This document shows, piece after piece, positions 2,940 through 35,062 of a DNA stretch of 43,553 nucleotides. Positions within the stretch are counted from its first letter, which is position 1. Every line of letters starts with the position of its first letter. Under the pieces are notes generated by a model, which did no database searches, had not been told where the DNA came from, and saw only the letters and a program-made list of their open reading frames with translations. Origin of the DNA: Escherichia phage EP-B-K_E2; sequence record OR992644.1. One strand, 5' to 3'. Made by a program: the position numbers and the translations under genes.

Positions 2940-3127
2940 TTTGCCACCAAAACTAGCTCTTTACGCCCGAACGCCGTAACGTTACCGGTTACATCTTCGA
3001 TAACCAGTTTACCGTTTGACTCGACGAACACAGTATCAACGGCAACAGGCTGGCGGGTCTTAACGTTGAAAATCATGTCGCCAGGTACGATGTCACGTGC
3101 TGGCTTGCGGTCATATTCGTGTTTCAT
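2936..3127 (-). CDS. hypothetical protein
   Basis: 63-aa ORF tightly coupled to upstream genes, promoter immediately upstream. Confidence 0.45.
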   Translation of the reverse strand: MKHEYDRKPARDIVPGDMIFNVKTRQPVAVDTVFVESNGKLVIEDVTGNVTAFGRKELVLVAK

Positions 3128-3157
3128 TTCTCAATTCCTTATATTGTTGGTGTATGG

Positions 3158-3445
3158 CTAACTATAATAGTTCGCTATTAGGTCGTCAACCTGTTTAAAC
3201 GAACCAACGACAAAAACATTTGCACCGCGTTTACGCATCCGCTCATGCTCACGTAACTGGTGCGGGTCAGGCTTCGTGTTTTCGTCTTTCTTAACCTCGA
3301 CGAACCAGACGATGCCGCCGGGGAGAATTACCAGCAGGTCAGGGGCGCCGGAGCGCCCCTCGTACGAAAGTTTACGAACGAGGCCGCCAATGGCCTCGAA
3401 TTGCTCTTTTGCGTATTTCTGTACGCGGCCCTCTTTAGTCGCCAT
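3158..3445 (-). CDS. VRR-NUC domain nuclease (PD-(D/E)XK)
   Basis: GAPDLLVILPGG...VEVK motif typical of VRR-NUC. Confidence 0.7.
   Translation of the reverse strand: MATKEGRVQKYAKEQFEAIGGLVRKLSYEGRSGAPDLLVILPGGIVWFVEVKKDENTKPDPHQLREHERMRKRGANVFVVGSFKQVDDLIANYYS
3161..3189 (-). promoter_or_regulatory. sigma70-like promoter TTGACG-N17-TATAGT with AATAG-N4-CTATT dyad
   Basis: Read on minus strand; same architecture as 7070-7098 and 9383-9411. Confidence 0.6.
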
Positions 3446-3941: not shown

Positions 3942-4135
3942 CCCTCACGTTTCGTATGCTCAATACCGCAGCGCGGACAGATTCGGCAGTCTTCCTCATA
4001 AAACCAGTAAATTTTCATTCCAGCACCCACAGATAAATTGCGATGAACATACCCAATACGGCTACCATCATGCCGTATTACCCCTCGTGACAGTAGACAC
4101 CGGCGGCGAATCCCGCCAGTACCGCAATAATCAGT

Positions 4136-6316
4136 TTACTTAGCATAGCGCTTCATCTCCGCACCTTCCGCTACAAGAGGGAACCCCTCTGCCCACTCTG
4201 GTAATTCGCACATCAACCGTTCAAGCTCTGCGACATTGTATTCCGGTAAATCTGGCGTCTCGCAGATAATCTCATCGTGAACATGAAGCACAATTGGGTA
4301 GCCGTTTGCTTCGACGTTAAGCAGGGCATTAGCCAGCAAATCACGGCACAGCGCCTGAGTGCAGTTTTCCACCAGTTTACCGGAGTAGGTATACTGGAAG
4401 CCCCACTGCCTGGTTAACTGGTTTTCGCCCTGGTACTTGATGCGCACGTTAGTAGACACCTTCCCGTCTTCGTCTGTCTCTTTTGATACACTTAAACCAA
4501 CGCCCGGGTAAGACATAACGCGGCCCGACGGCAACGTCATGCGCAACCACCAGCCCGCGACTTTGTTGCCGTTGGTGTCTGTTTCTACGTTACGCGAAAA
4601 CTTAACGCCCCGCGGCCCTGCGGTGAACTCTTTACCTGGGTTGCGGATAGCCGCCATAGCTGCATCTTCAATATCTCGCCAGAAAGCTACTGTTTCCGGG
4701 TGAGACTCGCGCCACATGCGCTTGATAGCGTCACAGGTACGCCACACTTTCTTATCAAGAATATATGATGGTCGGTCATCCTTTTCACCTGGACGTGGTG
4801 GTCGCTTGGCTTCCTGAATACGCGCCCACTCATATCCACGTGCGGTAGCAGCCCAGATGTGGTCGGGGAAAGTCCCATCCATTGTTTTTGCCATATCAAC
4901 CAGGTCAAGGCCAAGGTTCTTGGCGAACTGTACGAATGCGCCGACGCCGCCCGCATAGCCAAGCCCAAGTTCGCAGGCCTTACCAATCTGGCGCAAATCT
5001 TTACGTTCTTTCTTAATGTAATCTGGGTCCATGCCGAACATCTTACCTGCGGTTACGCAGTAAATATCCAGTCCGGCGCGGAACGTATCTAGCGCGGTTT
5101 CTTCGCCTGCCAGCCACGCTAAACCACGGCCTTCGACGTTTGAGTAATCGGCGACGACAAACTTATGCCCCACTTCCGGTATGATGCAGCTACGTACCGT
5201 CGATGCCGTTAGCTTGGCTACATCAAAACGGCGGTGTGCCCGGCCTTTAAGTAACGCTGAAATGCCTTTATCCAATTCATCATCGTGATAGTACCCGCGC
5301 GCCAGGTTCTGCGGCTGGAAGCCTTTACCTGCAAACCGTAACGTACGCTTGGCCCCACCGTACTGGATGCAACCACGGCGTCGGTCGTCAGACGAGCGGC
5401 CCAACAGCAGCGGGTTATATTTCGTTGACGCGGTGGACGCGGCCCCGAGGCGCATTTCGATAATTGTGCGTGCGTCGTCCGGTAAATCATCGTCCGCCAG
5501 CAGGTCGTTAAGCGTCGACTTCTGTGCGTTGTGTATGCGGTGTGCAGGGGAGAGTTCACGAAGAATCGGCAGAAAGTCCTTACCAGTAAGCGAGCCGCCG
5601 TATTTGCGTTGGGCTTCCTCCTGTAACTGCGCTTTGTGTTTCTCCACGGCTTCAATAGCGGCTTCCGCCAGTGCAACGTCAACCTTAAACCCGCGGTCGT
5701 TGATTAACTGGTCCAGTTCCAGTACACGGTCTTCGAACTCAGAGTTACCCCAACGCGGCAGCTTATGGAAGACTTCACGCATCGCAGTGATGTCGCTCAC
5801 GGCGTACTTGATGAACAGCGCCCACTCGTCCGGGTGTGTTTCTGCGGTGTAGCGGCGGATTTTGTAATTCTTCGGTGTCGGTTTAGAGAAACGCTGAATC
5901 AGCGCCTTGCCGCGTTTATCTTTTGCATTGTCAGCAGACACGCCGAGCACTTCACACAGCGCATCAAGTGAACCCGGCAGCGCGTGACGAAACGCCCAAA
6001 TCATCGTATCAATGGTGTTGCTTACGGGAATATCAAAGCCCCAGCAGTGTTTCATGATGGGCCTATCGAAAAGTCCACCGTTGTGCCACACCATCTTAAT
6101 GCGGCTGTTTGGCTTCACCAGACGGCGCAGAGCACGGTGCAAATCTCCTGGCATGTCGCTGCCGTCAGTGCAATCCCATACACGTACTGGCTCGTCGTCA
6201 AAAGAGTATGTACAGATAAGCACTTCGGTTGACGGATGCTCGGCGTAAGCGTAAGAACCGACTTTCTTCAAATCGGCTTCGGAGAATGTTTCAAAGTCTA
6301 AGAACAGGTAACTCAT
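4136..6316 (-). CDS. family A DNA polymerase with 3'-5' exonuclease domain
   Basis: Exo motif LFLDFETFS; pol motif A DYSNVEGR, motif B RQIGKACELGLGYAGG, motif C VLHVHDEI. Confidence 0.85.
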   Translation of the reverse strand: MSYLFLDFETFSEADLKKVGSYAYAEHPSTEVLICTYSFDDEPVRVWDCTDGSDMPGDLHRALRRLVKPNSRIKMVWHNGGLFDRPIMKHCWGFDIPVSNTIDTMIWAFRHALPGSLDALCEVLGVSADNAKDKRGKALIQRFSKPTPKNYKIRRYTAETHPDEWALFIKYAVSDITAMREVFHKLPRWGNSEFEDRVLELDQLINDRGFKVDVALAEAAIEAVEKHKAQLQEEAQRKYGGSLTGKDFLPILRELSPAHRIHNAQKSTLNDLLADDDLPDDARTIIEMRLGAASTASTKYNPLLLGRSSDDRRRGCIQYGGAKRTLRFAGKGFQPQNLARGYYHDDELDKGISALLKGRAHRRFDVAKLTASTVRSCIIPEVGHKFVVADYSNVEGRGLAWLAGEETALDTFRAGLDIYCVTAGKMFGMDPDYIKKERKDLRQIGKACELGLGYAGGVGAFVQFAKNLGLDLVDMAKTMDGTFPDHIWAATARGYEWARIQEAKRPPRPGEKDDRPSYILDKKVWRTCDAIKRMWRESHPETVAFWRDIEDAAMAAIRNPGKEFTAGPRGVKFSRNVETDTNGNKVAGWWLRMTLPSGRVMSYPGVGLSVSKETDEDGKVSTNVRIKYQGENQLTRQWGFQYTYSGKLVENCTQALCRDLLANALLNVEANGYPIVLHVHDEIICETPDLPEYNVAELERLMCELPEWAEGFPLVAEGAEMKRYAK

Positions 6317-6375
6317 TATTTTCGACCCTTAGTAAAAAGGCCCAATGAAGGGCCTTAGTTAAATTGATTCAGATA

Positions 6376-7002
6376 TTAGCGACGGCGACGTTCGCGGCGC
6401 GGTGATCCATCTTCTTCGTCGTCTTCCAGGTCATCGACGCTTGCGGCGACTTTAGAGCCACCAAACGCTTTACCTTCCCCGACGTACTTAATCGCCAGCA
6501 GGTTAACACCGAGAACTTTATATTTCTGGCTGAACCAGATTTCGACGCTTACGTTAGCAACGCAGCCACTGTAAACCTGTTCGCCTTCAATCTGTTCACC
6601 GTCTACGTTGAAGTCCTGCTCTACCTGGGTCTCACCTTTTTTAGAGGTTACAATCAGTGGCTGTTTCTGTGCCTTCGCTTTGAAGTAGAAGCCTTCCGGG
6701 AAGTCTTCAAACGGATTGTCGCGCTCAGCAATGTCTTTAATCGCGCATTTATCCATGTGCTTACCTTCGCCATAGTTGGACTTCATCCACTTCTCGGCGG
6801 CGGCTGCACCTAACGCTTCTTCAACTACAGCGTAAACATTGTCGTAGAGTGCATCGATTTGGGCATGGTCAGACGGCAGGATAATAGTTGCGCTGTACTG
6901 GCCTTTAGTGATTGAACCATCATCGTTTTCACGGTCTTTTTCGCGTTCAAATACGTTAACCCATGCAGTGTTTACTTTACGCAGATTTAATTTCAGTCCC
7001 AT
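6376..7002 (-). CDS. DUF2815-like protein (possible ssDNA-binding protein)
   Basis: 208 aa, acidic C-terminal region, position between polymerase and DUF2800-like nuclease. Confidence 0.45.
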   Translation of the reverse strand: MGLKLNLRKVNTAWVNVFEREKDRENDDGSITKGQYSATIILPSDHAQIDALYDNVYAVVEEALGAAAAEKWMKSNYGEGKHMDKCAIKDIAERDNPFEDFPEGFYFKAKAQKQPLIVTSKKGETQVEQDFNVDGEQIEGEQVYSGCVANVSVEIWFSQKYKVLGVNLLAIKYVGEGKAFGGSKVAASVDDLEDDEEDGSPRRERRRR

Positions 7003-7069
7003 CTTGATTTCTCGCTTTTCAGTTTATATTTCAAAGTTTACTCCGGGAACTGCCCGGCCAGTGATTAGA

Positions 7070-7098
7070 ACTATAATAGCTAACTATTCAGGTGTCAA
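7070..7098 (-). promoter_or_regulatory. sigma70-like promoter TTGACA-N17-TATAGT with AATAG-N4-CTATT dyad
   Basis: Read on minus strand upstream of 6376-7002. Confidence 0.6.
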
Positions 7099-7129
7099 CC
7101 CTTCCAGCCAGTTATTTTCTCAACTATAG

Positions 7130-7360
7130 TTAGGTATAGTTAGGCCACTTCAAATTACGAACCCACTCAACTTCTTTGGCGTACACCAAATCCTCTAGCT
7201 CTATTTTCCTGCACTTGAACGCGGTATACGCGAAAAACGGAAGAAGCATTATGACAAGCGGCAATATTAGCGCGTGATAAGTTAAAAACGCCACAAAACC
7301 GCCAATTACTCTGAACATTTTACGAATCATTCTAAATCCTCCTCTGTTACCTGATTCCAC
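7130..7360 (-). CDS. small membrane protein
   Basis: 76 aa with hydrophobic stretch VIGGFVAFLTYHALILPLVIMLLPFFAY. Confidence 0.45.
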   Translation of the reverse strand: MESGNRGGFRMIRKMFRVIGGFVAFLTYHALILPLVIMLLPFFAYTAFKCRKIELEDLVYAKEVEWVRNLKWPNYT

Positions 7361-8583
7361 TCAGGACGTTTGTCGTCTGCCGTTGCGACACATGGTGCGC
7401 CCGGCTTACGGGTAATGAAGTCTTTCAGTTCTTCTTCCGGTATGACTTTAACAGCTTCGGTAGGCGTCATGAGCACTTCTTTAGTCAGCTTGTCGCCGTA
7501 GAGTTCTGTTACTTTCTCCGCGTCTTTCCACGCACGATTACCCGGGCGGCCTTCAACCAGTTTGTACCCTGGCACTTTCTTACCGGAATGCAACACGGCC
7601 GCCATCGCTTTCTCGACCTTATCGATGTGCTGGCGCAACAACGGCAACTTCTCATACTCGGCGACGAGTTGCTCCGGCGTTAGTTCTAGTGCAAAGTCGT
7701 CTTCAAGTTCTTCCGCCAGTACAGAATTAACCGTCTTTGTACGCGCGGCGCATTGTTCAGAGAACCTACACCACTGACAACCATCTACCGACGGCTTAAA
7801 GTCCGACGCTTTCAGGTTCTTCTTACCGCGGAAGTACGCATCTAGCGCTAACAGCGCGCGTTTCTGTGCGAACTTGGCGAACAGTTCCAGCCCTTCAACC
7901 GGGATGTCCCACTCCGACGCACCGCCAGCGTACGGCTGGAAGATAACCAGACGAACGGTTGTTATGTTATAACGTCTCTTAAGTCTGCGATAAACACCGA
8001 GAGCGTAAAGCATAAGCTGCTTGTTTTCTTTCGCTTCGACACGATGCCGCCCTGTTTTAAGGTCGCCGATAATGAGCATGTGCTCGTCGGTGTTTGTCAG
8101 TTCCTGAACGGCAACAAGGTCTGCGGTTCCGAACGTCTCAACGCCTTCATACCCCGGATGCAATACCTCAGTAAGATTTACGCGCATCTCCAGCTTAGCG
8201 AAAGTAGCCACGTCGATAATCGGTTTGCAGTAGTCGGTGTACTTGCGCACCTGCTCAATCATGTCCGCCGTAATCAGTACAGCGCCTTTCATAGGACTGA
8301 TTAGCGCCTTAATCTGGCCTTTGCCCTCATCCAGAACATAAGCACCGACTTCACGCTCTAACGGTAGCGCAGTTCCGCGAATATAAGCGTTGAGATGGAC
8401 CTCAGCTATAGTGTGGCACGCGGTCCCTGTAACGGCAGCTTTACCAGATGTGTTAGGAATATCTTTTTCACAGGCCAGTGATGCAGCACAACTCAGCCAC
8501 TTTTTAGCGCCTGACGGTGACAGTAAGGCATGTACATCATTATTGCCGCCGCGTTCTTTAAGAATCATACCCTGTTCTCCCAC
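7327..8583 (-). CDS. DUF2800-like PD-(D/E)XK nuclease (RecB/Cas4-like, Cys cluster)
   Basis: N-terminal HALLSPSGAKKW signature, C-terminal CQWCRF...C cysteine cluster. Confidence 0.6.
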   Translation of the reverse strand: MGEQGMILKERGGNNDVHALLSPSGAKKWLSCAASLACEKDIPNTSGKAAVTGTACHTIAEVHLNAYIRGTALPLEREVGAYVLDEGKGQIKALISPMKGAVLITADMIEQVRKYTDYCKPIIDVATFAKLEMRVNLTEVLHPGYEGVETFGTADLVAVQELTNTDEHMLIIGDLKTGRHRVEAKENKQLMLYALGVYRRLKRRYNITTVRLVIFQPYAGGASEWDIPVEGLELFAKFAQKRALLALDAYFRGKKNLKASDFKPSVDGCQWCRFSEQCAARTKTVNSVLAEELEDDFALELTPEQLVAEYEKLPLLRQHIDKVEKAMAAVLHSGKKVPGYKLVEGRPGNRAWKDAEKVTELYGDKLTKEVLMTPTEAVKVIPEEELKDFITRKPGAPCVATADDKRPEWNQVTEEDLE

Positions 8584-8880: not shown

Positions 8881-9351
8881 TTATTCTTCTTCAAAATACT
8901 TGTTCTTGATTGCTGTCAGGCGTTCCAGGTATTCGGCCAGGTCTTCGTCTTTAATCTCGGCAATCTTCATCTTCTTACCGGTGAACTCTTCCAGCAGTTC
9001 ATCGGAATCATCGCACGCGGCATCGCTAGGACCTTCGTTAATTGCGTCATCGATAGCCTGAATCTGGTCACGCAGAGACTGGTAATCGACTTCTTCTTTC
9101 TCTTCTTCCGGCTCTGGCGTCGGCTCCTCTACTTTAGCTTTACGCGGCTTGCGTTTCGGCTTCTCTTCTTCTGCAGGTTTAATGTCAACGACGTCTTCAC
9201 CTTCGACTGGGATTTCTTTTGTTGCTTCTTTCGCAACAGTGGTCTCGATTGTTGCGGTTTCAGCAACGACTACTTGTTTCACACTGTTCGCAGCAATCAG
9301 TTCATGTGCAACTACGAAACGTTCCAGTAATTTTAAGAATTGGTCTAACAT
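8881..9351 (-). CDS. hypothetical acidic protein
   Basis: 156 aa, Glu/Asp-rich, first gene downstream of promoter 9383-9411. Confidence 0.5.
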   Translation of the reverse strand: MLDQFLKLLERFVVAHELIAANSVKQVVVAETATIETTVAKEATKEIPVEGEDVVDIKPAEEEKPKRKPRKAKVEEPTPEPEEEKEEVDYQSLRDQIQAIDDAINEGPSDAACDDSDELLEEFTGKKMKIAEIKDEDLAEYLERLTAIKNKYFEEE

Positions 9352-9382
9352 TTGTTTCTCTCCTCTCGTTTGGTATGGGCTA

Positions 9383-9411
9383 ACTATAATAGCGAACTAT
9401 TCACATGTCAA
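9383..9411 (-). promoter_or_regulatory. sigma70-like promoter TTGACA-N17-TATAGT with AATAG-N4-CTATT dyad
   Basis: Read on minus strand; divergent from HTH gene at 9476. Confidence 0.6.
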
Positions 9412-9475
9412 TGGGCTTTTCTAAAATAATTAATATGGTACTATTCACATATCAACTAACTAAGGAGTAATTGAC

Positions 9476-9691
9476 ATGCAACCATCTGAACTAGGCATCC
9501 GTGTAGAACAACGCCGCAAAGAACTTGGAATCTCCCAGCGCCGTCTGGCTGTACTAACCGGCGTTTCCCAGGGTGCAATTAACCAGCTGGCCCTTGGGGT
9601 AACTCAGGATGTCCGCCCGGCAACGCTGTTTAAACTGGCGGAAGTGCTGCAAGTAGACGCCAAGTGGCTGGCGTTCGGTGAAGGGGCTTAA
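9476..9691 (+). CDS. XRE-family helix-turn-helix transcriptional regulator (Cro/CI-like)
   Basis: ISQRRLAVLTGVSQGAINQL HTH; SD taaggag 8 nt upstream; divergent from early promoter. Confidence 0.75.
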   Translation: MQPSELGIRVEQRRKELGISQRRLAVLTGVSQGAINQLALGVTQDVRPATLFKLAEVLQVDAKWLAFGEGA

Positions 9692-9708
9692 CGCCCCTTT
9701 CTTTTTAC

Positions 9709-11994
9709 CTATTCCAAATCCTCCTCTGTCACCACCAGCATTTCATTCGGTTCGTATATTGTCTTCGGTCTTAATCTGTCACCCATCTTTTCCGGTATCC
9801 GGTATGTGCCCGGCATAACTTCACCGTTAATATCACACCCAAGCATCAACTCCCCGTCTTTCAGCATCTTCTCAAGATGATGGTTGGTGATGGCGTGGTC
9901 ACCCGAGTTCGCTACTATCTGTCGTTGGGTAAAACCGCGTCCGGTGTCGTCAGACTGTTGCAGGTCTTCCAGCGCGGCGAGTATTGATTCCTTACGCCCT
10001 TCATCCTTCCCACGTTTCACAGCATTCTTTACGTTTTCTTTACCTTCCTTTGTCAGCCCTTCTTCCCGCTCCTTCTCCTCGTCAGTCTTGAACGGCTCGA
10101 ATCCCCACGGCATCAGCACAAGCGCCTTGTGCGGTTCCGGCAGGTCGAGGTTTACGATTGTGCCGTATTCCTCTGTGCTACCGAGGAACTCAACCGCACG
10201 GTACTCTTTCGGTGGTGGCGCTTCACGGAACTGTACCGACTCCAGCACCATGCCAACCGTCTTCTGTTGAGGCCCATGCTTAAATTTAGAGTGGTATACG
10301 TTTATCTGACGGTCAGTGGCGCGTTCGATTGTCAGTTCCACGTCGACGCCCGCATACAGCGCCCCACTACCGCGGGCTTTCTTTCCACCCTTCGGTGTAT
10401 GGTGGACGACGCCCACCGCGGCTTTAGTCGCATCACGTACTTCTTTCAGGATGGCGATAACTTTACCCATACCGATTGCCGTTGATGAGCTGTTCTCGTC
10501 GAACTTATCAATCGTCAGGGCCAGGGTCTGGTTAAGGGTGTCGAACGCGACCATGCCGATAGGTTCATCGCCCGCAGTTTCGCGCATTAACTTAATCAGG
10601 CTTTTAAGTTTGCCGACTTCGCCCATGTCGATGACGTGTACATAATCTTTACCCTCTGCGCCGTATTTAGCCGCGAGCGCGTCAATACGTGTACGTGTGG
10701 CTGCGCCCCCCTCACCGTCGATATAGAAGTGGTGGCAACGCTGGGTGTCAGCGCCTGCAAACCGGTATCCCGCCGCGCTAAGGTACATCATACCCAGCGT
10801 ATAGAATGATTTGTACGTGCCTGATTCCCCAACAATATCCCAGATACAATCCGACGGCATATACCCCTCAACGACGAAATCAGCCTTTACCGGTTCCGGT
10901 AACTCGTCCTCCTCTGAGTCCTCATCACCATCTTCCAGGTCGTCGAGGCTGCATGAGACATATTCACGTGCACCCCAGCCGATAGCCTCGGCGACTTCAC
11001 TGAATGGCAGCCCGGTCGCATCGCACGCGTATCTCCACACCTCTTTCGGCGACATGCCTTCGGTTGCCGTAATGTCGGTGTCGTGAATCATGGTTACGTT
11101 AGGCGCTTCGTAGCCCTCACGCGGGAAACACAGCAGGAAGTCATCCGGGCGAGGGGTCGGGTCGCTGTAGTTCTCTGCGTGTTCTGGTGTAGCTGGCATC
11201 TTAAGGCCGCGGGGCGTCATGATGCCGCCATACTCAAACGCCAGCGCCTCGAACGCGTCTGTAAACGCGGTGCGCAGTTCTTCCGGTATCTGGTAATCCG
11301 ATGCGCTGCTCACATCGTAATCCGGGATGCCTTCCAGTAACTCGTCCGGGTCAATCAGGTCGTTGCGACGCGACCAGATAACGGTAGAGCCGACCGGCGG
11401 CAGGTACATCGGCTGCGAAAGAGTGAACCCGCTGCGGTCCGCACCCATGCCTTTGAAGAAGTGCTCAAGCAATCCATGACGAACACGGATTATGTCACCA
11501 CCTTCAACCGGTCGGCCCAGGGGCATAACGACGCGAAAGCGCGGTGACTCATCGGTATGGGATGCCGTGGTATAGAGGCACATGGCCTGACGGCTGCGCT
11601 TAACCAGTCGCACCGCTTCCTGATACTCTTCCGGCGTTGTGCTGTCGAAGTCCAGATATGCCAGCGACGATTTGCTTACAGACGCGTCACAGCGATAAAA
11701 GAAGCCTTTACGCGCTTGCTTAAAGTCCCCGGTTTCCGGGTCTTTTACGGTGCTGTGTGTTGAGTCGCACGCGGCTGTGATATAGCCGGGCGCGGTCTTC
11801 GGGTTAACCCCATCACGAACAGCATCGAGCGGCCGGATTAACTCTTTCAGGTCGTCCAGTGTTGCCGTGTGTGTGGTTCTGACGTTTATATCCTTTTTCT
11901 CTGCTCGCGCGTTGCGACGAGACCACGAGTAGGATAAAATTACATCGGACATGTTGTATATTCCTTCAGCAAGTAATTTGGCCTCGGCGTTCAC
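9709..11994 (-). CDS. DNA primase / replicative helicase (primase domain plus RecA-like ATPase)
   Basis: 761 aa; Walker A-like VGESGTYKS in C-terminal half; size and position in replication module. Confidence 0.65.
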   Translation of the reverse strand: MNAEAKLLAEGIYNMSDVILSYSWSRRNARAEKKDINVRTTHTATLDDLKELIRPLDAVRDGVNPKTAPGYITAACDSTHSTVKDPETGDFKQARKGFFYRCDASVSKSSLAYLDFDSTTPEEYQEAVRLVKRSRQAMCLYTTASHTDESPRFRVVMPLGRPVEGGDIIRVRHGLLEHFFKGMGADRSGFTLSQPMYLPPVGSTVIWSRRNDLIDPDELLEGIPDYDVSSASDYQIPEELRTAFTDAFEALAFEYGGIMTPRGLKMPATPEHAENYSDPTPRPDDFLLCFPREGYEAPNVTMIHDTDITATEGMSPKEVWRYACDATGLPFSEVAEAIGWGAREYVSCSLDDLEDGDEDSEEDELPEPVKADFVVEGYMPSDCIWDIVGESGTYKSFYTLGMMYLSAAGYRFAGADTQRCHHFYIDGEGGAATRTRIDALAAKYGAEGKDYVHVIDMGEVGKLKSLIKLMRETAGDEPIGMVAFDTLNQTLALTIDKFDENSSSTAIGMGKVIAILKEVRDATKAAVGVVHHTPKGGKKARGSGALYAGVDVELTIERATDRQINVYHSKFKHGPQQKTVGMVLESVQFREAPPPKEYRAVEFLGSTEEYGTIVNLDLPEPHKALVLMPWGFEPFKTDEEKEREEGLTKEGKENVKNAVKRGKDEGRKESILAALEDLQQSDDTGRGFTQRQIVANSGDHAITNHHLEKMLKDGELMLGCDINGEVMPGTYRIPEKMGDRLRPKTIYEPNEMLVVTEEDLE

Positions 11995-12011
11995 CGCGTC
12001 GGGGCTTTCTT

Positions 12012-12245
12012 TTATTCCAGGTCCTCTAAAGTAGCGGTCATTCCGCGAACTTCAGCAACGGCACTATATTTCCCGCCAACATTTTTCACGACACCGGATT
12101 TAACCAGCACCTTCAACGACCCTTCAATAACGGCGGAACTATAGTACTTAAAATAACTACGGCGCAAGTCCATAACGCTGCACGACCCTTTTTTACGTGT
12201 TAATGAGACGACCGCCGTAAATACGCGTGACTGGAACTCAGTCAT
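12012..12245 (-). CDS. hypothetical protein (possible winged-helix)
   Basis: 77-aa ORF coupled to 12242-12445. Confidence 0.4.
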   Translation of the reverse strand: MTEFQSRVFTAVVSLTRKKGSCSVMDLRRSYFKYYSSAVIEGSLKVLVKSGVVKNVGGKYSAVAEVRGMTATLEDLE

Positions 12246-12445
12246 TTCACGTTCTCCTTAATCCACGCTTCCACTTTCTCCCGGTCAAACGTACCTGGCT
12301 GCCGGCGGCCCATAATGCGAATACAACAATCCGGGAACTTCCCGCTCTTTAACCAGTTATTCAGCGTGCGACGAGTAACCCCGATACGCTCAGCTACTTC
12401 ATTCTGCGTCATTCTCAACCCCTCATTATCAGTTAACGGAACCAA
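12242..12445 (-). CDS. small HTH DNA-binding protein (AlpA/excisionase-like fold)
   Basis: MTQNEVAERIGVTRRTLNNWLKSGKFP HTH; first gene of minus-strand arm. Confidence 0.6.
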   Translation of the reverse strand: MVPLTDNEGLRMTQNEVAERIGVTRRTLNNWLKSGKFPDCCIRIMGRRQPGTFDREKVEAWIKENVK

Positions 12446-12843
12446 GTATACATTGCGAATAATGGGAAATCAAACATAATCGCACCTATTGACATTATGA
12501 AAATCTTCGTTTAAGGTGCTTCTATATCTTAGTTACTTTGATTCCTGTTCACCTTGTAAGAATGTTTAACCCGTGCGTCAAGCAAAGGGTTAAACACAGG
12601 CTTACTGAACACGAGAATTATCGTAACTTTCCTTCCTAAGTATCTCCGGTTGCCCTGGGCAAGCTCTATTCTCACCGGCAGCATATCTCTTAAGTATCTG
12701 ATTTTCTTAATGTGCCGTAGATTCGCAACCGTAAAAATGTAACGATTATCGGGCAGGCTTAAGGCCTGCCCTTTAGTTACCAAGTAATAAGAATAAAGGC
12801 ACAACCTTCCCTAAAGAATCACAACGGCAACGTAACTATTCTC

Positions 12844-12872
12844 TTGCACACCCCAACATAATAGGTTACTAT
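12844..12872 (+). promoter_or_regulatory. sigma70-like promoter TTGCAC-N17-TACTAT with AATAG-N4-CTATT dyad
   Basis: Nearly identical 35-bp element to 25844-25872 and 35034-35062 (opposite strand). Confidence 0.6.
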
Positions 12873-12907
12873 TCACTTATCGAAACGAGACAGAGGAGCG
12901 AGGGGTT

Positions 12908-14054: not shown

Positions 14055-14083
14055 TTGCACACTGGGATAGAATAGACTACTAT
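14055..14083 (+). promoter_or_regulatory. sigma70-like promoter TTGCAC-N17-TACTAT with AATAG-N4-CTATT dyad
   Basis: Upstream of 14114 gene. Confidence 0.6.
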
Positions 14084-14113
14084 TCATTTACACAGACGAT
14101 AGGAGAGACAGAG

Positions 14114-16964: not shown

Positions 16965-16986
16965 ATCTATTTTCTGCAATGACTAG

Positions 16987-17015
16987 TTGACTATTATCTA
17001 TGACCCTATTATATT
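16987..17015 (+). promoter_or_regulatory. sigma70-like promoter TTGACT-N17-TATATT
   Basis: Upstream of small-gene block beginning 17049; contains CTATT repeats. Confidence 0.55.
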
Positions 17016-19638: not shown

Positions 19639-19642
19639 TGCA

Positions 19643-19665
19643 AGCCCTCTACGGAGGGCTTTTCT
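19643..19665 (+). terminator. rho-independent terminator
   Basis: agccctc-tacg-gagggct followed by tttt. Confidence 0.6.
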
Positions 19666-19759
19666 GTACATCCAGCCCAATCCCCTTATATAATCCCTTT
19701 AGACGCGTAGGGCGCGTCTGGTGCGCTCTGATGGTCAGACGCATATGCAAGGGGATTCT

Positions 19760-25500: not shown

Positions 25501-25529
25501 AGGCCCTGAAAGGGCCTTATTTTTTTTTA
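25501..25529 (+). terminator. rho-independent terminator
   Basis: aggccct-gaa-agggcct followed by 9 T. Confidence 0.7.
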
Positions 25530-25808
25530 TACAAATACGAATCCATCGCTGGTAGAGGTGTATCGGGTGGCGCCGTTTTTCGTTTCAGGCCAACAGATAT
25601 ATGAGCGACCATGATACTCTATCCACCAAAGTTCTACATCGGCACCTTCATTAGGTCGCGTCAACCACCCGTGGTGCAGCCAATACTTGCGCCCTATTTT
25701 AAATATGCCTTCTTCGCCTGAAGGCCTGCAACAGGCGACGCACTCTACTTGAATACCATCAACCTGCACACATGTCATATGTAAATTACTGTTTGAGTAT
25801 TTAGCCAT
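25527..25808 (-). CDS. reverse-oriented orphan gene, Cys-rich hypothetical protein
   Basis: 93-aa ORF with own promoter (25844-25872) and SD aaggaa; opposite to flanking structural genes. Confidence 0.55.
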   Translation of the reverse strand: MAKYSNSNLHMTCVQVDGIQVECVACCRPSGEEGIFKIGRKYWLHHGWLTRPNEGADVELWWIEYHGRSYICWPETKNGATRYTSTSDGFVFV

Positions 25809-25843
25809 TTCTAAATTCCTTATCTCTCGTTTCGATGTAATGA

Positions 25844-25872
25844 ATAGTACCCTATTATGCTGGTGTGTGCAA
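25844..25872 (-). promoter_or_regulatory. sigma70-like promoter TTGCAC-N17-TACTAT with dyad (minus strand)
   Basis: Near-identical to 12844-12872 element. Confidence 0.6.
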
Positions 25873-25926: not shown

Positions 25927-25967
25927 CTATTCGAATAGTTGACTTTTCACTAAAAATGTGATAAGCT
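25927..25967 (+). promoter_or_regulatory. palindrome CTATTCGAATAG abutting a TTGACT -35 and extended -10-like TGaTAAGCT
   Basis: Perfect 12-bp palindrome at 25927-25938; promoter-like spacing 17. Confidence 0.45.
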
Positions 25968-26191: not shown

Positions 26192-26578
26192 ATGAATCTT
26201 AAAGCAACTGTCGTAGCAGGAGCATGTTTCATCATCCTGGCTTACGCGCACGGCATCTACCAGTATCGCAGCGGCTGGAACGAAGGCCGGGTGAATCTCG
26301 TTTCGCAGCAACATCAGAAAGCACAGGCGGAGCTAGCGAAGAAAACACAACGGCAGCAGCAGGATGAATCAAAGGCCGCAGCCGCCGACAACGAAGGCAA
26401 GACGAAATCAGAGGTGATTACCCGTGAAGTCGTTAAGTACATTAAAACGCCTGGCCGCAGCGTGTGCACTTTCGACGATGCTCGCGTCCTGCTCAAGTCC
26501 CGCGCCGTCGCCAACGCCAATTCCATCCCCGGATACGACAATGATGCAGCCTCCGTGCAAACTGGCGGCGCCAAGTAG
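26192..26578 (+). CDS. i-spanin (Rz-like)
   Basis: N-terminal TM helix, Gln/Ala/Lys-rich periplasmic region, overlapping lipoprotein gene in +1 frame. Confidence 0.6.
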   Translation: MNLKATVVAGACFIILAYAHGIYQYRSGWNEGRVNLVSQQHQKAQAELAKKTQRQQQDESKAAAADNEGKTKSEVITREVVKYIKTPGRSVCTFDDARVLLKSRAVANANSIPGYDNDAASVQTGGAK

Positions 26579-26690
26579 CGACGCCGACGAGGATTTGGCT
26601 ATCGACGTTCAGAACGCCGAATGTGCACGGCAACTGAGACTGAAAGTGTTCATGCTGCAGGACTGGGTACGGAATGTGATGGCGGAATAA
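26424..26690 (+). CDS. o-spanin (Rz1-like outer-membrane lipoprotein), GTG start
   Basis: Signal peptide with lipobox LASC, Pro-rich mature region, overlapped architecture with i-spanin. Confidence 0.6.
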   Translation: MKSLSTLKRLAAACALSTMLASCSSPAPSPTPIPSPDTTMMQPPCKLAAPSSDADEDLAIDVQNAECARQLRLKVFMLQDWVRNVMAE

Positions 26691-26691
26691 G

Positions 26692-26715
26692 AAAAGCCCC
26701 TTATGGGGCTTTGTT
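26692..26715. terminator. bidirectional rho-independent terminator
   Basis: aagcccc-ttat-ggggctt flanked by A-run upstream and T-rich downstream. Confidence 0.55.
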
Positions 26716-26718
26716 GCG

Positions 26719-26883
26719 TTAAAAGTTTCCGTATACAAAATTACGTTTTCTGGTTCTCAATGGGACCCATGCAGGTATGTTATCATTGTGGACGAAATGT
26801 TCCTCATAGAAGAAAACCTTTTTGGTATTGCTGGACCAATGGTCCATTTTTAAAATTCTTCTTGCTTTTGCGTTTCTGGTCAT
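26719..26883 (-). CDS. reverse-oriented small ORF (54 aa, not in ORF track)
   Basis: Strong SD acaggaggg 7 nt upstream of ATG; convergent with spanins; shares bidirectional terminator. Confidence 0.4.
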   Translation of the reverse strand: MTRNAKARRILKMDHWSSNTKKVFFYEEHFVHNDNIPAWVPLRTRKRNFVYGNF

Positions 26884-26910
26884 TCTTATGCCCTCCTGTT
26901 TAAGTTACCT

Positions 26911-26932
26911 CCTATAATAGCACCCTATTATA
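26911..26932. promoter_or_regulatory. AATAG-N4-CTATT dyad element with TATAAT/TATTAT boxes (strand ambiguous)
   Basis: ctataatagcaccctattatat matches the dyad family at 25844 and 35034. Confidence 0.45.
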
Positions 26933-27033
26933 TTGGTGTCTATAGGGGTGGTTGCCTTCTGATGTGGAATAATTTATTCTTGACATGTAAATCCGGGTGG
27001 CCCGGGTTCCAACGTCCAGGGGACATACTGACT

Positions 27034-27735
27034 ATGAATCTTTTTTTACGCTATCCGTTCCAGGAAGAAGCTGGGGCAGAAGATAAAGCGGGTGGCGGTG
27101 ATGCACCGAAAATGTTCACCGCTGAAGAAGTTCAGGCGCTGATTGAGAAAGAAGTCGCCGGGCTTAAGGCCAATCAGGAAGCGTTGCTCGCGGAGAAGAA
27201 AGAAGCCGCTCGCAAAGCAAAAGAGGCCGAAGAAGAACGGCAGCGCGCCCACCAGGAGGCGTTAAAAGCCGCCGGTAAGATGGACGAGTTCGAAAAGACG
27301 ATTCGTAGCCAGTATGACCCGGTGTTAGCCGAGAAAGATGGTCGCATCTCCAAAATGGCAGAGCGCATCCTCGGCAGCGAACGTAAAGCGGTGTTAGGCT
27401 CTTTCGCGGGCGACTTTATCACCCCTGAAGCAGTAGACATTCTTGCACCGTTCGTTAAGACTGAGTTCGAAGGTGACGATGTGGTTACTAAGTTTGTCGG
27501 CGCAGACGGCAACGTAATCACGACTGACCCGGAACAGTTCCGCAAATACCTACGTGAACACAAAGCGTTTTCGCATTTGATTAAAGCAAATGCAGCTTCC
27601 GGCGGCGGGGCTTCCGGTGGCAAAGGCGGCGGGGCCGCACCAGCGTTTAAAGACATGAGTGAAGCGGAGCGTTTAGCTCTGTACAAATCGAACCCTGCCG
27701 AATTTGAACGGCAACTTAAAGCCCTGAGGAAATAA
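27034..27735 (+). CDS. scaffolding protein
   Basis: Ala/Glu/Lys-rich coiled coil, immediately upstream of major capsid gene. Confidence 0.6.
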   Translation: MNLFLRYPFQEEAGAEDKAGGGDAPKMFTAEEVQALIEKEVAGLKANQEALLAEKKEAARKAKEAEEERQRAHQEALKAAGKMDEFEKTIRSQYDPVLAEKDGRISKMAERILGSERKAVLGSFAGDFITPEAVDILAPFVKTEFEGDDVVTKFVGADGNVITTDPEQFRKYLREHKAFSHLIKANAASGGGASGGKGGGAAPAFKDMSEAERLALYKSNPAEFERQLKALRK

Positions 27736-27737
27736 TA

Positions 27738-28787
27738 ATGGCAATTACCACTATCGGCGATATCGTAACTGGCAACATCCCGGTCCTGGCGTCTTATATG
27801 ACCGAGGACCCGGTAGAAAAAACCGCGTTCTTCCAGTCCGGTATTCTGACCCCGACTCCGTACGCTGCCGAGATCGCTCGCGGCCCGTCCAACATCGCCA
27901 ACATTCCTTTCTGGAAAGCGATTGATACTTCTATTGAGCCTAACTACTCGAACGATGTGTATCAGGATATCGCTACCCCACGTAATGTGCAGACCGGCGA
28001 GATGATGGCCCGCGTTGCCTACCTGAACGAAGGCTTTGGCCAGGCAGACCTGACGGTTGAACTGACCAGTCAGAATCCGCTGCAATCCGTGGCTTCTCGC
28101 TTGGATAACTTCTGGCAGCGCCAGGCACAACGCCGTCTGATTGCTACCGCTCTCGGTCTGTACAATGACAACGTAGCCGCTACCGATGCTTACCACGAGC
28201 AGAACGACATGGTTATCGACGTGTCCGCTACTCTGGGCTTCGACGCAGGCGCATTCATCGACGCTACCCAGACTATGGGTGACGCCCTGATGGGCAACGG
28301 TGGTGAAGTGCTGGGCGCCATCGCGATGCACAGCTTCGTTTATGCGCAGGCACGTAAGCAGCAGCTTATTGACTTCATTAAAGACGCTGACAACGACACC
28401 CTGTTCGCCACCTACCAGGGTTATCGTGTGATTGTTGACGACAGCATGACCGTAGTCGGTACTGGCGGTGGCCGTAAGTTCATCTCTATCATCTTCGGTA
28501 ACGGCGCTATCGGTTACGGCGAGGGCAACCCGTCCAACCCGCTGGAATATGAACGCGAACCGTCTCGCGGTAACGGTGGTGGCGTCGAAACCCTGTGGAC
28601 TCGTAAGACCTGGCTGCTGCACCCACTGGGCTACAGCTTCACCAGCGCAGTAATCACCGGTAACGGCACCGAGACTGTCGCACGTTCTGCTTCCTGGCAG
28701 GACCTGGCGAACGCCTCCAACTGGAACCGTGTGGTTGATCGTAAGCACGTACCTATTGCCTTCCTGGTAACTGGTGTCGGTGCTTAA
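27738..28787 (+). CDS. major capsid protein
   Basis: 349 aa after scaffold gene, followed by strong terminator. Confidence 0.7.
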   Translation: MAITTIGDIVTGNIPVLASYMTEDPVEKTAFFQSGILTPTPYAAEIARGPSNIANIPFWKAIDTSIEPNYSNDVYQDIATPRNVQTGEMMARVAYLNEGFGQADLTVELTSQNPLQSVASRLDNFWQRQAQRRLIATALGLYNDNVAATDAYHEQNDMVIDVSATLGFDAGAFIDATQTMGDALMGNGGEVLGAIAMHSFVYAQARKQQLIDFIKDADNDTLFATYQGYRVIVDDSMTVVGTGGGRKFISIIFGNGAIGYGEGNPSNPLEYEREPSRGNGGGVETLWTRKTWLLHPLGYSFTSAVITGNGTETVARSASWQDLANASNWNRVVDRKHVPIAFLVTGVGA

Positions 28788-28803
28788 GGTTAAGCTATAA
28801 TCG

Positions 28804-29725: not shown

Positions 29726-29728
29726 TTT

Positions 29729-35003: not shown

Positions 35004-35033
35004 TTTAAACCCCTTCATTGTTGGTGTAAGTGA

Positions 35034-35062
35034 ATAGTACCCTATTATATTGGGGTACGCAA
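35034..35062 (-). promoter_or_regulatory. sigma70-like promoter TTGCGT-N17-TACTAT with dyad (minus strand)
   Basis: Near-identical to 12844-12872 and 25844-25872 elements. Confidence 0.6.

What the first reader, a model, noticed from the sequence alone, without database searches (positions are those of the whole stretch)
9352..9475. Divergent promoter switch with a Cro/CI-like XRE regulator in an apparently virulent phage
The 124-bp region holds a strong minus-strand promoter (TTGACA-N17-TATAGT, 9383-9411) driving early replication genes, back-to-back with a plus-strand element (TACTAT at 9439-9444 with a weak -35) driving a 71-aa XRE-family HTH gene, the only plus-strand gene inside the minus-strand arm. 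Both promoters overlap dyad sites, the classic geometry of an autoregulated switch. No integrase, excisionase-integrase pair or long repressor with a peptidase domain was found in the window, so this may be a lytic-timing switch rather than a lysogeny switch.
Basis: partly seen in the sequence, partly recalled or inferred. Interest (0 to 1): 0.55.

Follow-up and report, generated by a model that had tools for sequence, protein, structure and literature searches.

The report
Cro-like regulator at phage promoter hub
In this lytic E. coli phage a small 434-Cro-like gene sits back-to-back with the phage's strongest promoter, and both promoters carry a 14-bp palindrome that recurs at about ten other early promoters, which suggests one repressor turns down most early transcription; which protein binds the palindrome is not established.

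Summary
The window is a Kagunavirus genome (Guernseyvirinae). Positions 9352-9475 hold a minus-strand TTGACA-17-TATAGT promoter, one of only two 11/12 sigma-70 matches in 43.5 kb. Back-to-back lies a conserved extended -10 (TGgTACTAT) for a 71-aa protein whose closest solved relatives are 434 Cro and 434 repressor.

The conserved dyad is AATAG-N4-CTATT: perfect at 9388-9401 in the minus promoter's spacer, 9/10 at 9432-9445 over the XRE -10. The repeat finder's palindrome ATTCACATGTCAAT is not conserved.

This dyad is not local. It occurs 8 times exactly (0.03 expected) plus 3 near-copies. All overlap predicted core promoters of early, replication or accessory operons, in several registers. None lies at the late operon promoter or the HTH_17-primase operon promoter. 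It is also the top dyad in Jerseyvirus SETP3.

So the region is one node of a genome-wide operator network rather than a private two-promoter switch. The binder is unproven. XRE is the best candidate (about 0.5). Against it, its recognition helix differs between genera that share the dyad, whereas a second HTH protein (HTH_17) is conserved.

This is an ordinary kind of system. It is uncharacterised in this phage group, and one paper claims a carrier state for a relative.

The parts
9383..9411 (-). Strong sigma-70 promoter (P_rep) for the operon p156, exonuclease, SSB, DNA polymerase: -35 TTGACA 9411-9406, 17-nt spacer, -10 TATAGT 9388-9383. The inferred transcription start is near 9376.
   Evidence: 11/12 to consensus, one of two such sites in the window against 0.30 expected. 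Conserved in 37 Kagunavirus loci and, as TTGCAT-17-TATAGT, in Jerseyvirus.
9388..9401 (.). Operator O1: a perfect 14-bp dyad, AATAG-CGAA-CTATT. It lies in the spacer of P_rep at -25..-12.
   Evidence: Among 16 distinct Kagunavirus sequences the arms never vary, while three of the four central positions do.
9417..9435 (-). A/T-rich tract (18 of 19 bases) at -41..-59 of P_rep, the position of an UP element. The same bases form the spacer of the XRE promoter.
   Evidence: Sequence read directly. The UP-element role is inferred from the known -40 to -60 A/T-rich UP element of E. coli promoters.
9432..9445 (.). Operator O2: a variant dyad, AATAT-GGTA-CTATT, with 9 of 10 arm positions. It spans -19..-6 of the XRE promoter, and its right arm forms most of the -10 hexamer.
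   Evidence: Only one central base varies among Kagunavirus sequences. Jerseyvirus has ATTAC-TGTA-CTATT at the same place.
9436..9444 (+). P_xre: an extended -10 promoter, TGgTACTAT, with no usable -35. The inferred transcription start is near 9451.
   Evidence: The same TACTAT -10 serves the class B promoters at 12860, 14071, 25843 and 35033. In Jerseyvirus the XRE gene has TTGCAC-17-TACTAT instead.
9462..9467 (+). Shine-Dalgarno sequence AAGGAG of the XRE gene, 8 nt before the ATG.
   Evidence: Conserved in Kagunavirus, Jerseyvirus and Cornellvirus.
9476..9691 (+). XRE gene: 71 aa, a 434-Cro-like five-helix HTH protein with recognition helix SQGAINQL.
   Evidence: Pfam HTH_3, E 1.1e-12. 434 Cro E 1.9e-6 by sequence. 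The AF2 model's best PDB fold matches are the 434 repressor DNA-binding domain and 434 Cro. Helix 3 is invariant among relatives down to 77% identity. The orthologue is transcribed in phage K1B4 infection (PMC12645636).
9680..9700 (+). Intrinsic terminator of the XRE transcript, overlapping the last XRE codons and ending before the convergent primase-helicase gene. No T-run follows it on the minus strand.
   Evidence: A terminator is annotated at the same place in SETP3.
8881..9351 (-). First gene of the P_rep operon: a 156-aa acidic protein (p156) of unknown function, labelled '13.88 kDa late protein' in some records.
   Evidence: It is the divergent partner of XRE in all four genera examined.
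3166..3179 (-). Dyad in the spacer of a class A promoter, TTGACG-17-TATAGT.
7075..7088 (-). Dyad in the spacer of the class A promoter TTGACA-17-TATAGT upstream of the SSB gene.
   Evidence: A perfect copy sits upstream of the SSB-like gene (gp52) even in Serratia phage Otaku.
12860..12873 (+). Dyad over the -10 of the class B promoter TTGCAC-17-TACTAT, at the head of the rightward arm of small early genes.
14071..14084 (+). Dyad over the -10 of a second class B promoter in the rightward arm.
16982..16995 (+). One-mismatch dyad, ACTAG-TTGA-CTATT, overlapping the -35 (TTGACT) of a promoter downstream of the endolysin gene.
   Evidence: The equivalent site in SETP3 is AATAGTTGACTAGT.
25843..25856 (-). 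Dyad over the -10 of a class B promoter. It drives a minus-strand 93-aa gene inserted in the structural region.
25934..25947 (+). One-mismatch dyad, AATAG-TTGA-CTTTT, overlapping a TTGACT -35.
26916..26929 (-). Dyad at -22..-9 of a promoter for a minus-strand 54-aa ORF.
35033..35046 (-). Dyad at the promoter of a minus-strand cassette encoding a superinfection-immunity-like protein, a metallophosphoesterase and a 76-aa protein.
12242..12412 (-). HTH_17 gene: excisionase/Cox-like, 56 aa counted from the internal ATG. It is the first gene of the primase operon and the main rival candidate for binding the dyad. Its own promoter region has no dyad.
   Evidence: It is 88% identical to the SETP3 orthologue with the same HTH. 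It is absent from Cornellvirus SE1, and no homologue was detected in Otaku. It is classed 'early' in K1B4 RNA-seq.

Best explanation
The 124-bp region is a back-to-back pair of host-RNA-polymerase promoters.

- P_rep is the strongest sigma-70 promoter of the phage. It reads leftward into the operon for p156, exonuclease, SSB and DNA polymerase.
- P_xre is a weak extended -10 promoter. It reads rightward into a one-gene unit encoding a 71-aa 434-Cro-like XRE protein.

Each core promoter contains the phage's 14-bp operator, AATAG-N4-CTATT. The copy in the P_rep spacer (O1) is perfect. The copy over the P_xre -10 (O2) has a weakened left arm.

The same operator overlaps the core of about ten other early, replication and accessory promoters. 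It is absent from the late structural promoter and from the promoter region of the HTH_17-primase operon.

The proposed mechanism is as follows.
1. On infection, all of these promoters fire with host polymerase.
2. The XRE protein accumulates and binds as a dimer to the perfect operators first, occluding RNA polymerase.
3. XRE fills the weaker O2 last, which limits its own synthesis.

Shown here: the promoters, the operator family and its positions, their conservation, and the fold of XRE. Inferred: that the dyad is a repressor site, that XRE is the protein that binds it, and the order in which sites are filled.
For: Operator family:
- 8 exact copies against 0.03 expected, and 11 copies with at most one mismatch against 1.1 expected.
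- It is the top-ranked dyad in both the window and Jerseyvirus SETP3.
- It sits at orthologous places in SZH-1 and phiSD1 with different central bases.
- The arms are invariant and the centre varies among 16 distinct O1 sequences.

Operator rather than polymerase element:
- The dyads overlap predicted core promoters in several registers: -25..-12, -22..-9, -19..-6 and over the -35.
- Spacers are 17 nt, which is not the MerR-activator geometry.

XRE as the binder:
- Its closest solved relatives are 434 Cro and 434 repressor, by sequence and by fold.
- Relatives at 34-41% identity have 14-bp dyads directly upstream of their genes: ATAAC-N4-GTTAT in Magia, ACAAC-N4-GTTGT in locus L055, ACAG-N6-CTGT in a Yersinia phage cro.
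- Two operators flank its own promoter. It diverges from P_rep in all four genera examined.
- Its helix 3 is invariant within Kagunavirus down to 77% identity.
- Cornellvirus SE1 lacks HTH_17 and the 77-aa winged-helix protein p77 but keeps XRE. Its promoters keep quasi-dyads, AWTAS-N4-STAWT, including at the XRE / p156-operon pair.
- The orthologue is expressed in mid-infection in phage K1B4.
Against: - There is no binding or expression data for this phage.
- XRE is only 49% identical between Kagunavirus and Jerseyvirus. Helix 3 reads SQGAINQL in one and SQSLITHL in the other, yet both genera use the identical dyad.
- HTH_17 is 88% identical between those genera with an unchanged HTH. It is found only in the two genera that have strict dyads.
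- Otaku's XRE shares the SQG start of the helix, but its own promoter region has no such dyad. That genome has a single copy.
- In Jerseyvirus the two operators next to XRE are the imperfect ones: AATCG in place of one AATAG arm at O1, and ATTAC in place of AATAG at O2.
- The K1B4 RNA-seq paper classes DNA polymerase as 'late'. That fits early shut-off of P_rep poorly, although the paper's time classes are coarse.
Confidence: 0.45

Rival explanations
1. The dyad is the operator of another phage protein. The most likely is the early Cox/excisionase-like HTH_17 (12242-12412); the winged-helix p77 (12012-12245) is a weaker candidate. On this reading the XRE gene is just one of the regulated targets. 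XRE itself would then act elsewhere, for example on host genes or on superinfecting phage, or through an unrecognised local site.
For: - HTH_17 has an identical HTH in Kagunavirus and Jerseyvirus, which share the strict dyad, whereas XRE has diverged.
- HTH_17 and p77 are absent from Cornellvirus SE1 and undetected in Otaku. In those genomes the dyad is degenerate or nearly absent.
- HTH_17 is transcribed from a region without a dyad and is classed 'early' in K1B4.
- p77 is predicted to be a winged helix.
Against: - By general knowledge of the family, small HTH_17/excisionase/Cox-type proteins typically bind direct repeats as monomers or filaments, not 14-bp palindromes.
- The phyletic pattern rests on a single evolutionary event, because Kagunavirus and Jerseyvirus are sister genera.
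- SE1 keeps symmetric quasi-dyads at its promoters without either protein.
- p77 carries the same acidic C-terminal ...EDLE tail as the primase-helicase and the exonuclease. That points to a replisome role.
- No dyad lies near the HTH_17 gene itself.
Confidence: 0.3
2. The region is the control point of a repressed, non-integrated carrier or pseudolysogenic state. The dyad-binding repressor silences essentially all early and middle promoters, so the genome can persist as an episome and confer superinfection immunity. P1 and N15 do this with scattered operators.
For: - Operators lie at nearly every non-late promoter.
- A superinfection-immunity-like gene lies behind one dyad promoter.
- A paper on Jerseyvirus SGP-C (94% identical to SETP3) reports turbid plaques and phage-releasing, immune colonies. 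It proposes an episome and names these two HTH genes as the module (PMC8790156).
- All database copies of XRE lie on phage-sized contigs, which is compatible with a state that never integrates.
Against: - No partition, plasmid-replication or integrase function was recognised.
- XRE has no oligomerisation or cleavage domain, so no induction route is evident.
- The group is otherwise described as strictly lytic with clear plaques.
- Mixed resistant and sensitive carrier cultures would explain the SGP-C data without any repression.
- The promoter region of the HTH_17-primase operon lacks the operator, so replication functions would not be silenced.
Confidence: 0.1
3. The repeated dyad has no binding protein. 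It would be a shared part of a family of duplicated promoter cassettes, copied around the genome together with their leaders. The XRE gene would be a decaying remnant of an ancestral immunity region.
For: The promoters also share leader sequences (ACCAAACGAGAGGAG, ATCGAAACGAGA) and -10/-35 variants, so they are clearly paralogous cassettes. In Cornellvirus and Otaku the dyad is degenerate or rare.
Against: - The dyad keeps perfect two-fold symmetry while its centre and its register relative to -35 and -10 change. Neutral cassette copying does not predict this.
- XRE is intact in more than 500 phage records, and its helix 3 is invariant among the Kagunavirus variants aligned.
- The gene has a conserved Shine-Dalgarno sequence, promoter and terminator, and it is transcribed.
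Confidence: 0.1

Closest known systems
Phage 434 Cro and its OR/OL operators (and lambda Cro)
   Same: A single-domain five-helix HTH of 71 aa, and the closest solved sequence and fold match. Both systems use 14-bp two-fold symmetric operators with conserved arms and a variable centre. The operators overlap a pair of back-to-back promoters whose inferred starts are about 75 bp apart, one of which serves the regulator gene. The expected role is also the same: turning down early lytic transcription, with autoregulation through a weaker site.
   Different: There is no CI partner and no lysogeny genes. The regulator sits on the weak-promoter side (the PRM-like position), not at the head of the early operon. 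There is one operator per promoter instead of three tandem sites. About ten further operators are scattered over the genome. The half-site is AATAG rather than ACAAG. Binding is untested.
Phage P1 C1 repressor (scattered operators) and mycobacteriophage L5 gp71 stoperators
   Same: One short operator sequence is repeated at many transcription units across a phage genome, so a single protein can govern most non-late transcription (established knowledge of those systems).
   Different: Those operators are asymmetric (17 bp in P1, 13 bp in L5) and they maintain a prophage. Here the site is a palindrome, always overlaps a core promoter, and the phage group is regarded as lytic.
Controller (C) proteins of restriction-modification systems (C.AhdI, C.BclI)
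   Same: Small XRE-family HTH dimers, which appear among the fold matches. They sit next to their own dyad operators and act as a timing device through sites of graded affinity.
   Different: C proteins activate and then repress a single promoter that they share with the endonuclease gene. They do not act on a set of promoters across a genome.
P2 Cox / 186 Apl (excisionase-type transcriptional regulators)
   Same: The rival candidate HTH_17 belongs to this broad class (PHROG 66 'excisionase and transcriptional regulator'). In P2-like phages such proteins repress promoters of the developmental switch.
   Different: Cox and Apl bind arrays of direct repeats, and those phages integrate. Here the site is a palindrome and no integrase is present.

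Membership tests
Cro/CI-type XRE (Pfam HTH_3) phage regulators, 434 Cro-like | HTH_3 domain above the curated threshold | tested here: met
   48.2 bits against a cut-off of 23, E 1.1e-12.
Cro/CI-type XRE (Pfam HTH_3) phage regulators, 434 Cro-like | Five-helix globular fold of the 434 Cro / 434 repressor DNA-binding domain | tested here: met
   The AF2 model has five helices. The top PDB matches are 1pra, 2cro and 3cro, with TM-scores of 0.73-0.81. By sequence, 434 Cro gives E 1.9e-6.
Cro/CI-type XRE (Pfam HTH_3) phage regulators, 434 Cro-like | Cro-like rather than CI-like: a single domain, with no C-terminal oligomerisation or S24 peptidase domain | tested here: met
   The protein is 71 aa and has HTH-family hits only.
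Cro/CI-type XRE (Pfam HTH_3) phage regulators, 434 Cro-like | Binds two-fold symmetric operators that overlap promoters next to its own gene | tested here: inconclusive
   Suitable 14-bp dyads are present at both adjacent promoters. Binding cannot be tested here, and comparison between genera argues partly against XRE as the binder.
Lambdoid immunity region (CI-Cro bistable lysogeny switch) | A divergently transcribed maintenance repressor (CI) opposite the Cro-like gene | tested here: not met
   The divergent partner is the p156-exonuclease-SSB-polymerase operon. No second XRE or CI gene was found.
Lambdoid immunity region (CI-Cro bistable lysogeny switch) | Integrase or recombinase, and prophage copies in bacterial genomes | tested here: not met
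   There are no integrase or resolvase hits in the candidate ORFs. All 20 protein clusters lie on contigs of 45 kb or less. Not every small ORF was scanned.
Multi-operator phage regulons (P1 C1 type) | The same operator repeated at many transcription units | tested here: met
   8 exact and 3 near copies, all at promoter-like sites. Also present in SETP3, SZH-1 and phiSD1.
Multi-operator phage regulons (P1 C1 type) | The repressor maintains a plasmid or integrated prophage | not testable with these tools
   The only evidence is an indirect published claim for a relative (PMC8790156).
MerR-type activators that bind in the promoter spacer | A dyad centred in an over-long 19-20 bp spacer | tested here: not met
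   Spacers are 17 nt, and the dyad's register varies between promoters.

The most novel reading that the evidence does not exclude
The dyad network, together with the orphan Cro-like XRE and perhaps the Cox-like HTH_17, forms a complete genome-silencing circuit. It would let phages catalogued as strictly lytic (Kagunavirus, Jerseyvirus), which are widely proposed for therapy and biocontrol, enter a repressed, integrase-free carrier state with superinfection immunity.
Probability: 0.1. Interest if true: 0.7.

Novelty: new member of a known kind. Interest (0 to 1): 0.4.

Why it matters
Kagunavirus and Jerseyvirus phages account for hundreds of sequenced isolates. They are promoted for therapy and food biocontrol, and they are used as small chassis for synthetic biology. 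Their transcription programme is essentially undescribed, and this gene is variously labelled 'repressor', 'DicA', 'Cro' or 'hypothetical'.

Two consequences follow from finding one 14-bp operator at most early, replication and accessory promoters:

- It gives a concrete, testable wiring diagram. A single protein-DNA pair could be used to time or silence the early programme.
- It bears on the recurring safety question of whether a 'repressor' gene in these phages signals temperate behaviour. The evidence here points to a Cro-type lytic regulator, but it does not exclude a carrier state.

Tried and rejected
Local features rejected as functional sites:
- The near-palindrome ATTCACATGTCAAT (9399-9412) and its inverted partial copy ATTGACATG over the XRE start codon. 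Both vary in sequence and length among 37 Kagunavirus loci.
- The alternative plus-strand promoter TTCACA-16-TAAAAT (9400-9427, 10/12). Its -35 lies in the variable patch, and its -10 is lost in locus L038 and altered in L019.
- A second minus-strand promoter in the 25-nt direct repeat (TTGATA-18-AATTAT). It has a poor -10 and is not conserved in Jerseyvirus.
- No other 5-N4-5 dyads conserved within a genus were found in the XRE-proximal region.

The covariation test of helix 3 against half-site across genera was inconclusive. Kagunavirus and Jerseyvirus share the dyad despite different helices. Cornellvirus has relaxed arms, and Otaku has almost no copies.

Searches that added nothing:
- The word-indexed protein search returned only relatives of at least 77% identity.
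- Rfam and the tRNA scan found nothing.
- Pfam and PHROG scans of 40 window ORFs, mostly small, found no further recognisable regulator.
- Literature searches for MB78, 'Jerseyvirinae' promoters and SETP3 promoters found no description of the operator. One of these searches was badly framed and uninformative.

The structure of p77 gave only a generic winged helix.

Scanning public collections for the dyad was not attempted, because ten specified bases are too few to be specific.
Full report
**Identity of the window.** The 43.5-kb window is essentially a complete genome of a Kagunavirus (subfamily Guernseyvirinae, family Sarkviridae). The 3.7 kb around the finding is 99.9% identical to Escherichia phage EP-M-A and 91-94% identical to SZH-1, phiSD1, K1ind1 and others. 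In all, 436 phage records match, mostly Salmonella Jerseyviruses and E. coli Kagunaviruses. The literature describes these phages as small, glycan-targeting and strictly lytic siphoviruses.

**Gene layout.** A minus-strand replication arm runs from about 12445 down to 593. Reading leftward it encodes:
- HTH_17
- a 77-aa protein (p77)
- the primase-helicase
- a 156-aa acidic protein (p156)
- a PD-(D/E)XK exonuclease
- a Gp2.5-like SSB
- DNA polymerase A
- nucleases, a methylase and an SNF2 helicase

The 71-aa ORF at 9476-9691 is the only gene on the opposite strand within this arm. The same holds in annotated relatives.

**Checking the observation.**
- The minus-strand promoter TTGACA-17-TATAGT (9411..9383) is present. 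Promoter-like matches as such are no more frequent here than in shuffled sequence. Matches of at least 11/12 are rare: two in the whole window against 0.30 expected, the other being at 7098..7070.
- Upstream of its -35, positions 9417-9435 are 18/19 A/T and span -41..-59. That is where an UP element sits. This is read from the sequence, and the function is inferred.
- On the plus strand, TACTAT (9439-9444) is only 4/6 to consensus and lacks a -35. It is preceded by TG at -15/-14.
- Among 38 Kagunavirus sequences the T and G never change, while the base between them and the hexamer does.
- In Jerseyvirus the same gene has a conventional TTGCAC-17-TACTAT promoter.
- AAGGAG lies 8 nt before the ATG. 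A plus-strand terminator (9680-9700) spans the last XRE codons and the gap before the convergent primase-helicase gene.

**The protein.** The ORF matches Pfam HTH_3 (E 1.1e-12). Its best solved relative by sequence is 434 Cro, which is also 71 aa (E 1.9e-6). An AlphaFold model has five helices, and its best structural matches are the 434 repressor DNA-binding domain and 434 Cro. There is no C-terminal domain. More distant phage relatives include:
- a genuine cro next to cI in a Yersinia phage
- the N-terminal domain of the Burkholderia phage Magia immunity repressor

**Which dyads are real.**
- The repeat finder reported a 25-nt direct repeat (9387-9411 and 9431-9455) and a near-palindrome, ATTCACATGTCAAT.
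- Alignment of 37 Kagunavirus loci shows that the centre of that palindrome is the one hypervariable patch of the region. It reads CACATG, CACGTG, CACTTG or CATGATG, with length changes.
- What is conserved inside the direct repeat is a different 14-bp dyad: AATAG-CGAA-CTATT (9388-9401) and AATAT-GGTA-CTATT (9432-9445).
- Among 16 distinct versions of the first site the ten arm positions never vary, while three of the four central positions do. This is the pattern expected of a dimer-binding site with an uncontacted centre.

**The dyad is genome-wide.**
- AATA-N6-TATT occurs 10 times in the window against 0.69 expected.
- The stricter AATAG-N4-CTATT occurs 8 times against 0.03 expected. Eleven sites have at most one mismatch, against 1.1 expected.
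- In an unbiased enumeration of all 5-mer inverted repeats it ranks first in the window. It also ranks first in Jerseyvirus SETP3, with 5 exact copies plus variants.
- SZH-1 has 7 exact copies and the sequenced half of phiSD1 has 6. These lie at orthologous places with different central bases.
- Every site lies at a promoter-like position upstream of an operon.

**Promoter classes.** The dyad overlaps the core promoter in several registers.

| Class | Sites | Promoter | Dyad position |
|---|---|---|---|
| A | 3166, 7075, 9388 (replication arm) | TTGAC(A/G)-17-TATAGT | in the spacer, -25..-12 |
| B | 9432 (P_xre), 12860, 14071, 25843, 35033 | TTGCAC-17-TACTAT (P_xre lacks the -35) | -19..-6; its right arm overlaps the -10 hexamer |
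| other | 26916 | TAGACA-17-TATTAT | -22..-9 |
| variant | 16982, 25934 | TTGACT as -35 | over the -35 |

- SETP3 shows a further register.
- The shifting register argues that this is an independent protein-binding site placed to occlude RNA polymerase, rather than part of polymerase recognition.
- The 17-nt spacers argue against MerR-type activation.

**Where the dyad is absent.**
- No dyad lies at the late structural operon. That operon has its own terminator-promoter junction at 19642-19694 (TGTACA-18-TATAAT).
- None lies at the predicted promoter of the HTH_17-primase operon.

- The back-to-back geometry is real and old. XRE diverges from the p156-exonuclease-SSB-polymerase operon in Kagunavirus, Jerseyvirus, Cornellvirus SE1 and Serratia phage Otaku.
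- In SE1 and Otaku, XRE additionally heads the primase operon.
- In Kagunavirus and Jerseyvirus the primase block lies in the opposite orientation and is headed by HTH_17 and p77. XRE is left as a one-gene unit convergent with it.
- The region is therefore not a private switch. It is one node of a regulon that covers most non-late promoters.

**Who binds the dyad: evidence for XRE.**
- The site is a 14-bp palindrome with 5-4-5 geometry, like 434 operators.
- Relatives of XRE carry dyads of the same size directly upstream of their genes:

| Relative | Recognition helix | Upstream dyad |
|---|---|---|
| Magia immunity repressor | SQPAIAKV | ATAAC-N4-GTTAT |
| IMG/VR locus L055 | SQQLISKI | ACAAC-N4-GTTGT |
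| Yersinia phage cro | KQQSLQQI | ACAG-N6-CTGT |

- XRE is flanked by two copies of the site.
- Its helix 3 is invariant among Kagunavirus variants down to 77% identity.
- PHROGs places only XRE, and more weakly HTH_17, in the transcription-regulation category among the 30 window proteins scanned against that library.
- Cornellvirus SE1 has no detectable HTH_17 or p77. It still has XRE, and it keeps symmetric quasi-dyads (AWTAS-N4-STAWT) at its promoters, including both members of the XRE / p156-operon pair. A second Cornellvirus differs only in a central base.

**Who binds the dyad: evidence against XRE.**
- XRE is 49% identical between Kagunavirus and Jerseyvirus. Helix 3 is SQGAINQL in one and SQSLITHL in the other, yet the dyad is identical in both.
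- HTH_17 is 88% identical between them with an unchanged HTH. It occurs only in these two genera.
- Otaku's XRE begins its helix with SQG, but Otaku has a single dyad, upstream of its SSB-like gene, and none beside XRE.
- In Jerseyvirus the two XRE-proximal sites are the imperfect ones.

**Weighing the candidates.**
- The phyletic argument for HTH_17 rests on one evolutionary event.
- By general knowledge, excisionase/Cox-type proteins favour direct repeats rather than palindromes.
- p77 is a generic winged helix. Its C-terminal ...LEDLE tail resembles the ...TEEDLE tails of the primase-helicase and the exonuclease, which suggests a replisome role.
- I put XRE at about 0.5, HTH_17 at about 0.2, p77 at about 0.1, and an unrecognised phage or host factor at about 0.2.

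**External data.**
- A temporal RNA-seq study of Kagunavirus vB_Eco_K1B4 lists a plus-strand 216-nt gene between a 471-nt gene and the primase. This is the orthologue of XRE, and the paper classes it 'middle'. It classes the HTH_17 orthologue among four 'early' genes and DNA polymerase as 'late' (PMC12645636). The classes are coarse (5-120 min) and no expression table is held, so this shows only that the gene is expressed.
- A paper on Jerseyvirus SGP-C (94% identical to SETP3) reports turbid bull's-eye plaques and phage-releasing, superinfection-immune colonies. It proposes an episomal state, and it reads XRE as 'Cro' and HTH_17 as 'cI/Cox' (PMC8790156). The evidence there is compatible with a mixed carrier culture.
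- In the 5.8-billion-protein collection, every cluster of this XRE sits on contigs of 45 kb or less, and no integrase was found. Integration is therefore unlikely, but a repressed non-integrated state is not excluded.

**Verdict.**
This is most likely a Cro-type negative-feedback and shut-off node of a lytic programme, built from familiar parts: a 434-Cro-like HTH, a palindromic operator overlapping sigma-70 promoters, and a weaker autoregulatory site.
- The added value is that the operator defines a genome-wide network conserved in two genera.
- The main open question is which protein reads the operator.
- I rate it a new member of a known kind, with moderate interest (0.4).

Noticed in passing
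window 7327-8583, 9709-11994, 12012-12245 (all minus strand): Three replication-arm proteins end in nearly the same acidic C-terminal tail. The exonuclease ends ...QVTEEDLE, the primase-helicase ...VVTEEDLE, and the 77-aa winged-helix protein ...TATLEDLE. This looks like a shared docking peptide for one partner, perhaps the Gp2.5-like SSB or the polymerase, by analogy with the acidic tails in T7.
   Followed up: partly
window 12446-12907: A 460-bp gap between the two divergent arms has no convincing gene. It contains a plus-strand TTGACA (12491-12496) with a weak -10, and a strong hairpin with a T-tail at 12751-12771. It could be a small non-coding transcript or the replication origin. Rfam finds nothing, and SETP3 carries a predicted promoter at the equivalent place.
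   Followed up: partly
window 25527-25808, 26719-26883, 33226-35018 (minus strand, inside the plus-strand structural region): Three small opposite-strand cassettes sit inside the late region, each behind its own dyad promoter. One encodes a superinfection-immunity-like protein (34812-35018) followed by a metallophosphoesterase.
   Followed up: partly
window 19642-19694: A hairpin terminator is followed immediately by TGTACA-18-TATAAT, just upstream of the small terminase gene. This is a candidate late promoter with a perfect -10, a poor -35 and no dyad.
   Followed up: no
window 9356-9376, 12875-12900, 25812-25840, 3125-3160: The leaders downstream of the dyad promoters are similar to one another (ACCAAACGAGAGGAG, ATCGAAACGAGA(C/G)AG, ACACCAACAAT). 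The promoters are therefore paralogous cassettes that include the 5' UTR and the ribosome-binding site.
   Followed up: no
L041 (Cornellvirus SE1) 4112-7823 and L058 (Otaku) 26573-30339, compared with window 8881-12445: In Cornellvirus and Otaku the primase-helicase lies downstream of XRE on the same strand. In Kagunavirus and Jerseyvirus that block is in the opposite orientation and has HTH_17 and p77 at its head. This looks like an inversion that created the second divergent region and left XRE convergent with the primase gene.
   Followed up: partly
window dyad flanks compared with L040 (SETP3): In Kagunavirus the base before the half-site is often G preceded by T (TGAATAG, 6-7 of 16 half-sites). 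In SETP3 it is T in all 12 (TAATAG, giving a 16-bp palindrome). This is a possible genus-specific difference in operator recognition.
   Followed up: no
window 9709-9476 (minus-strand read-through): No minus-strand terminator follows the primase-helicase stop codon. Transcripts of the HTH_17-primase operon should therefore run antisense through the XRE gene and into P_rep, which would allow transcriptional interference with XRE expression.
   Followed up: no
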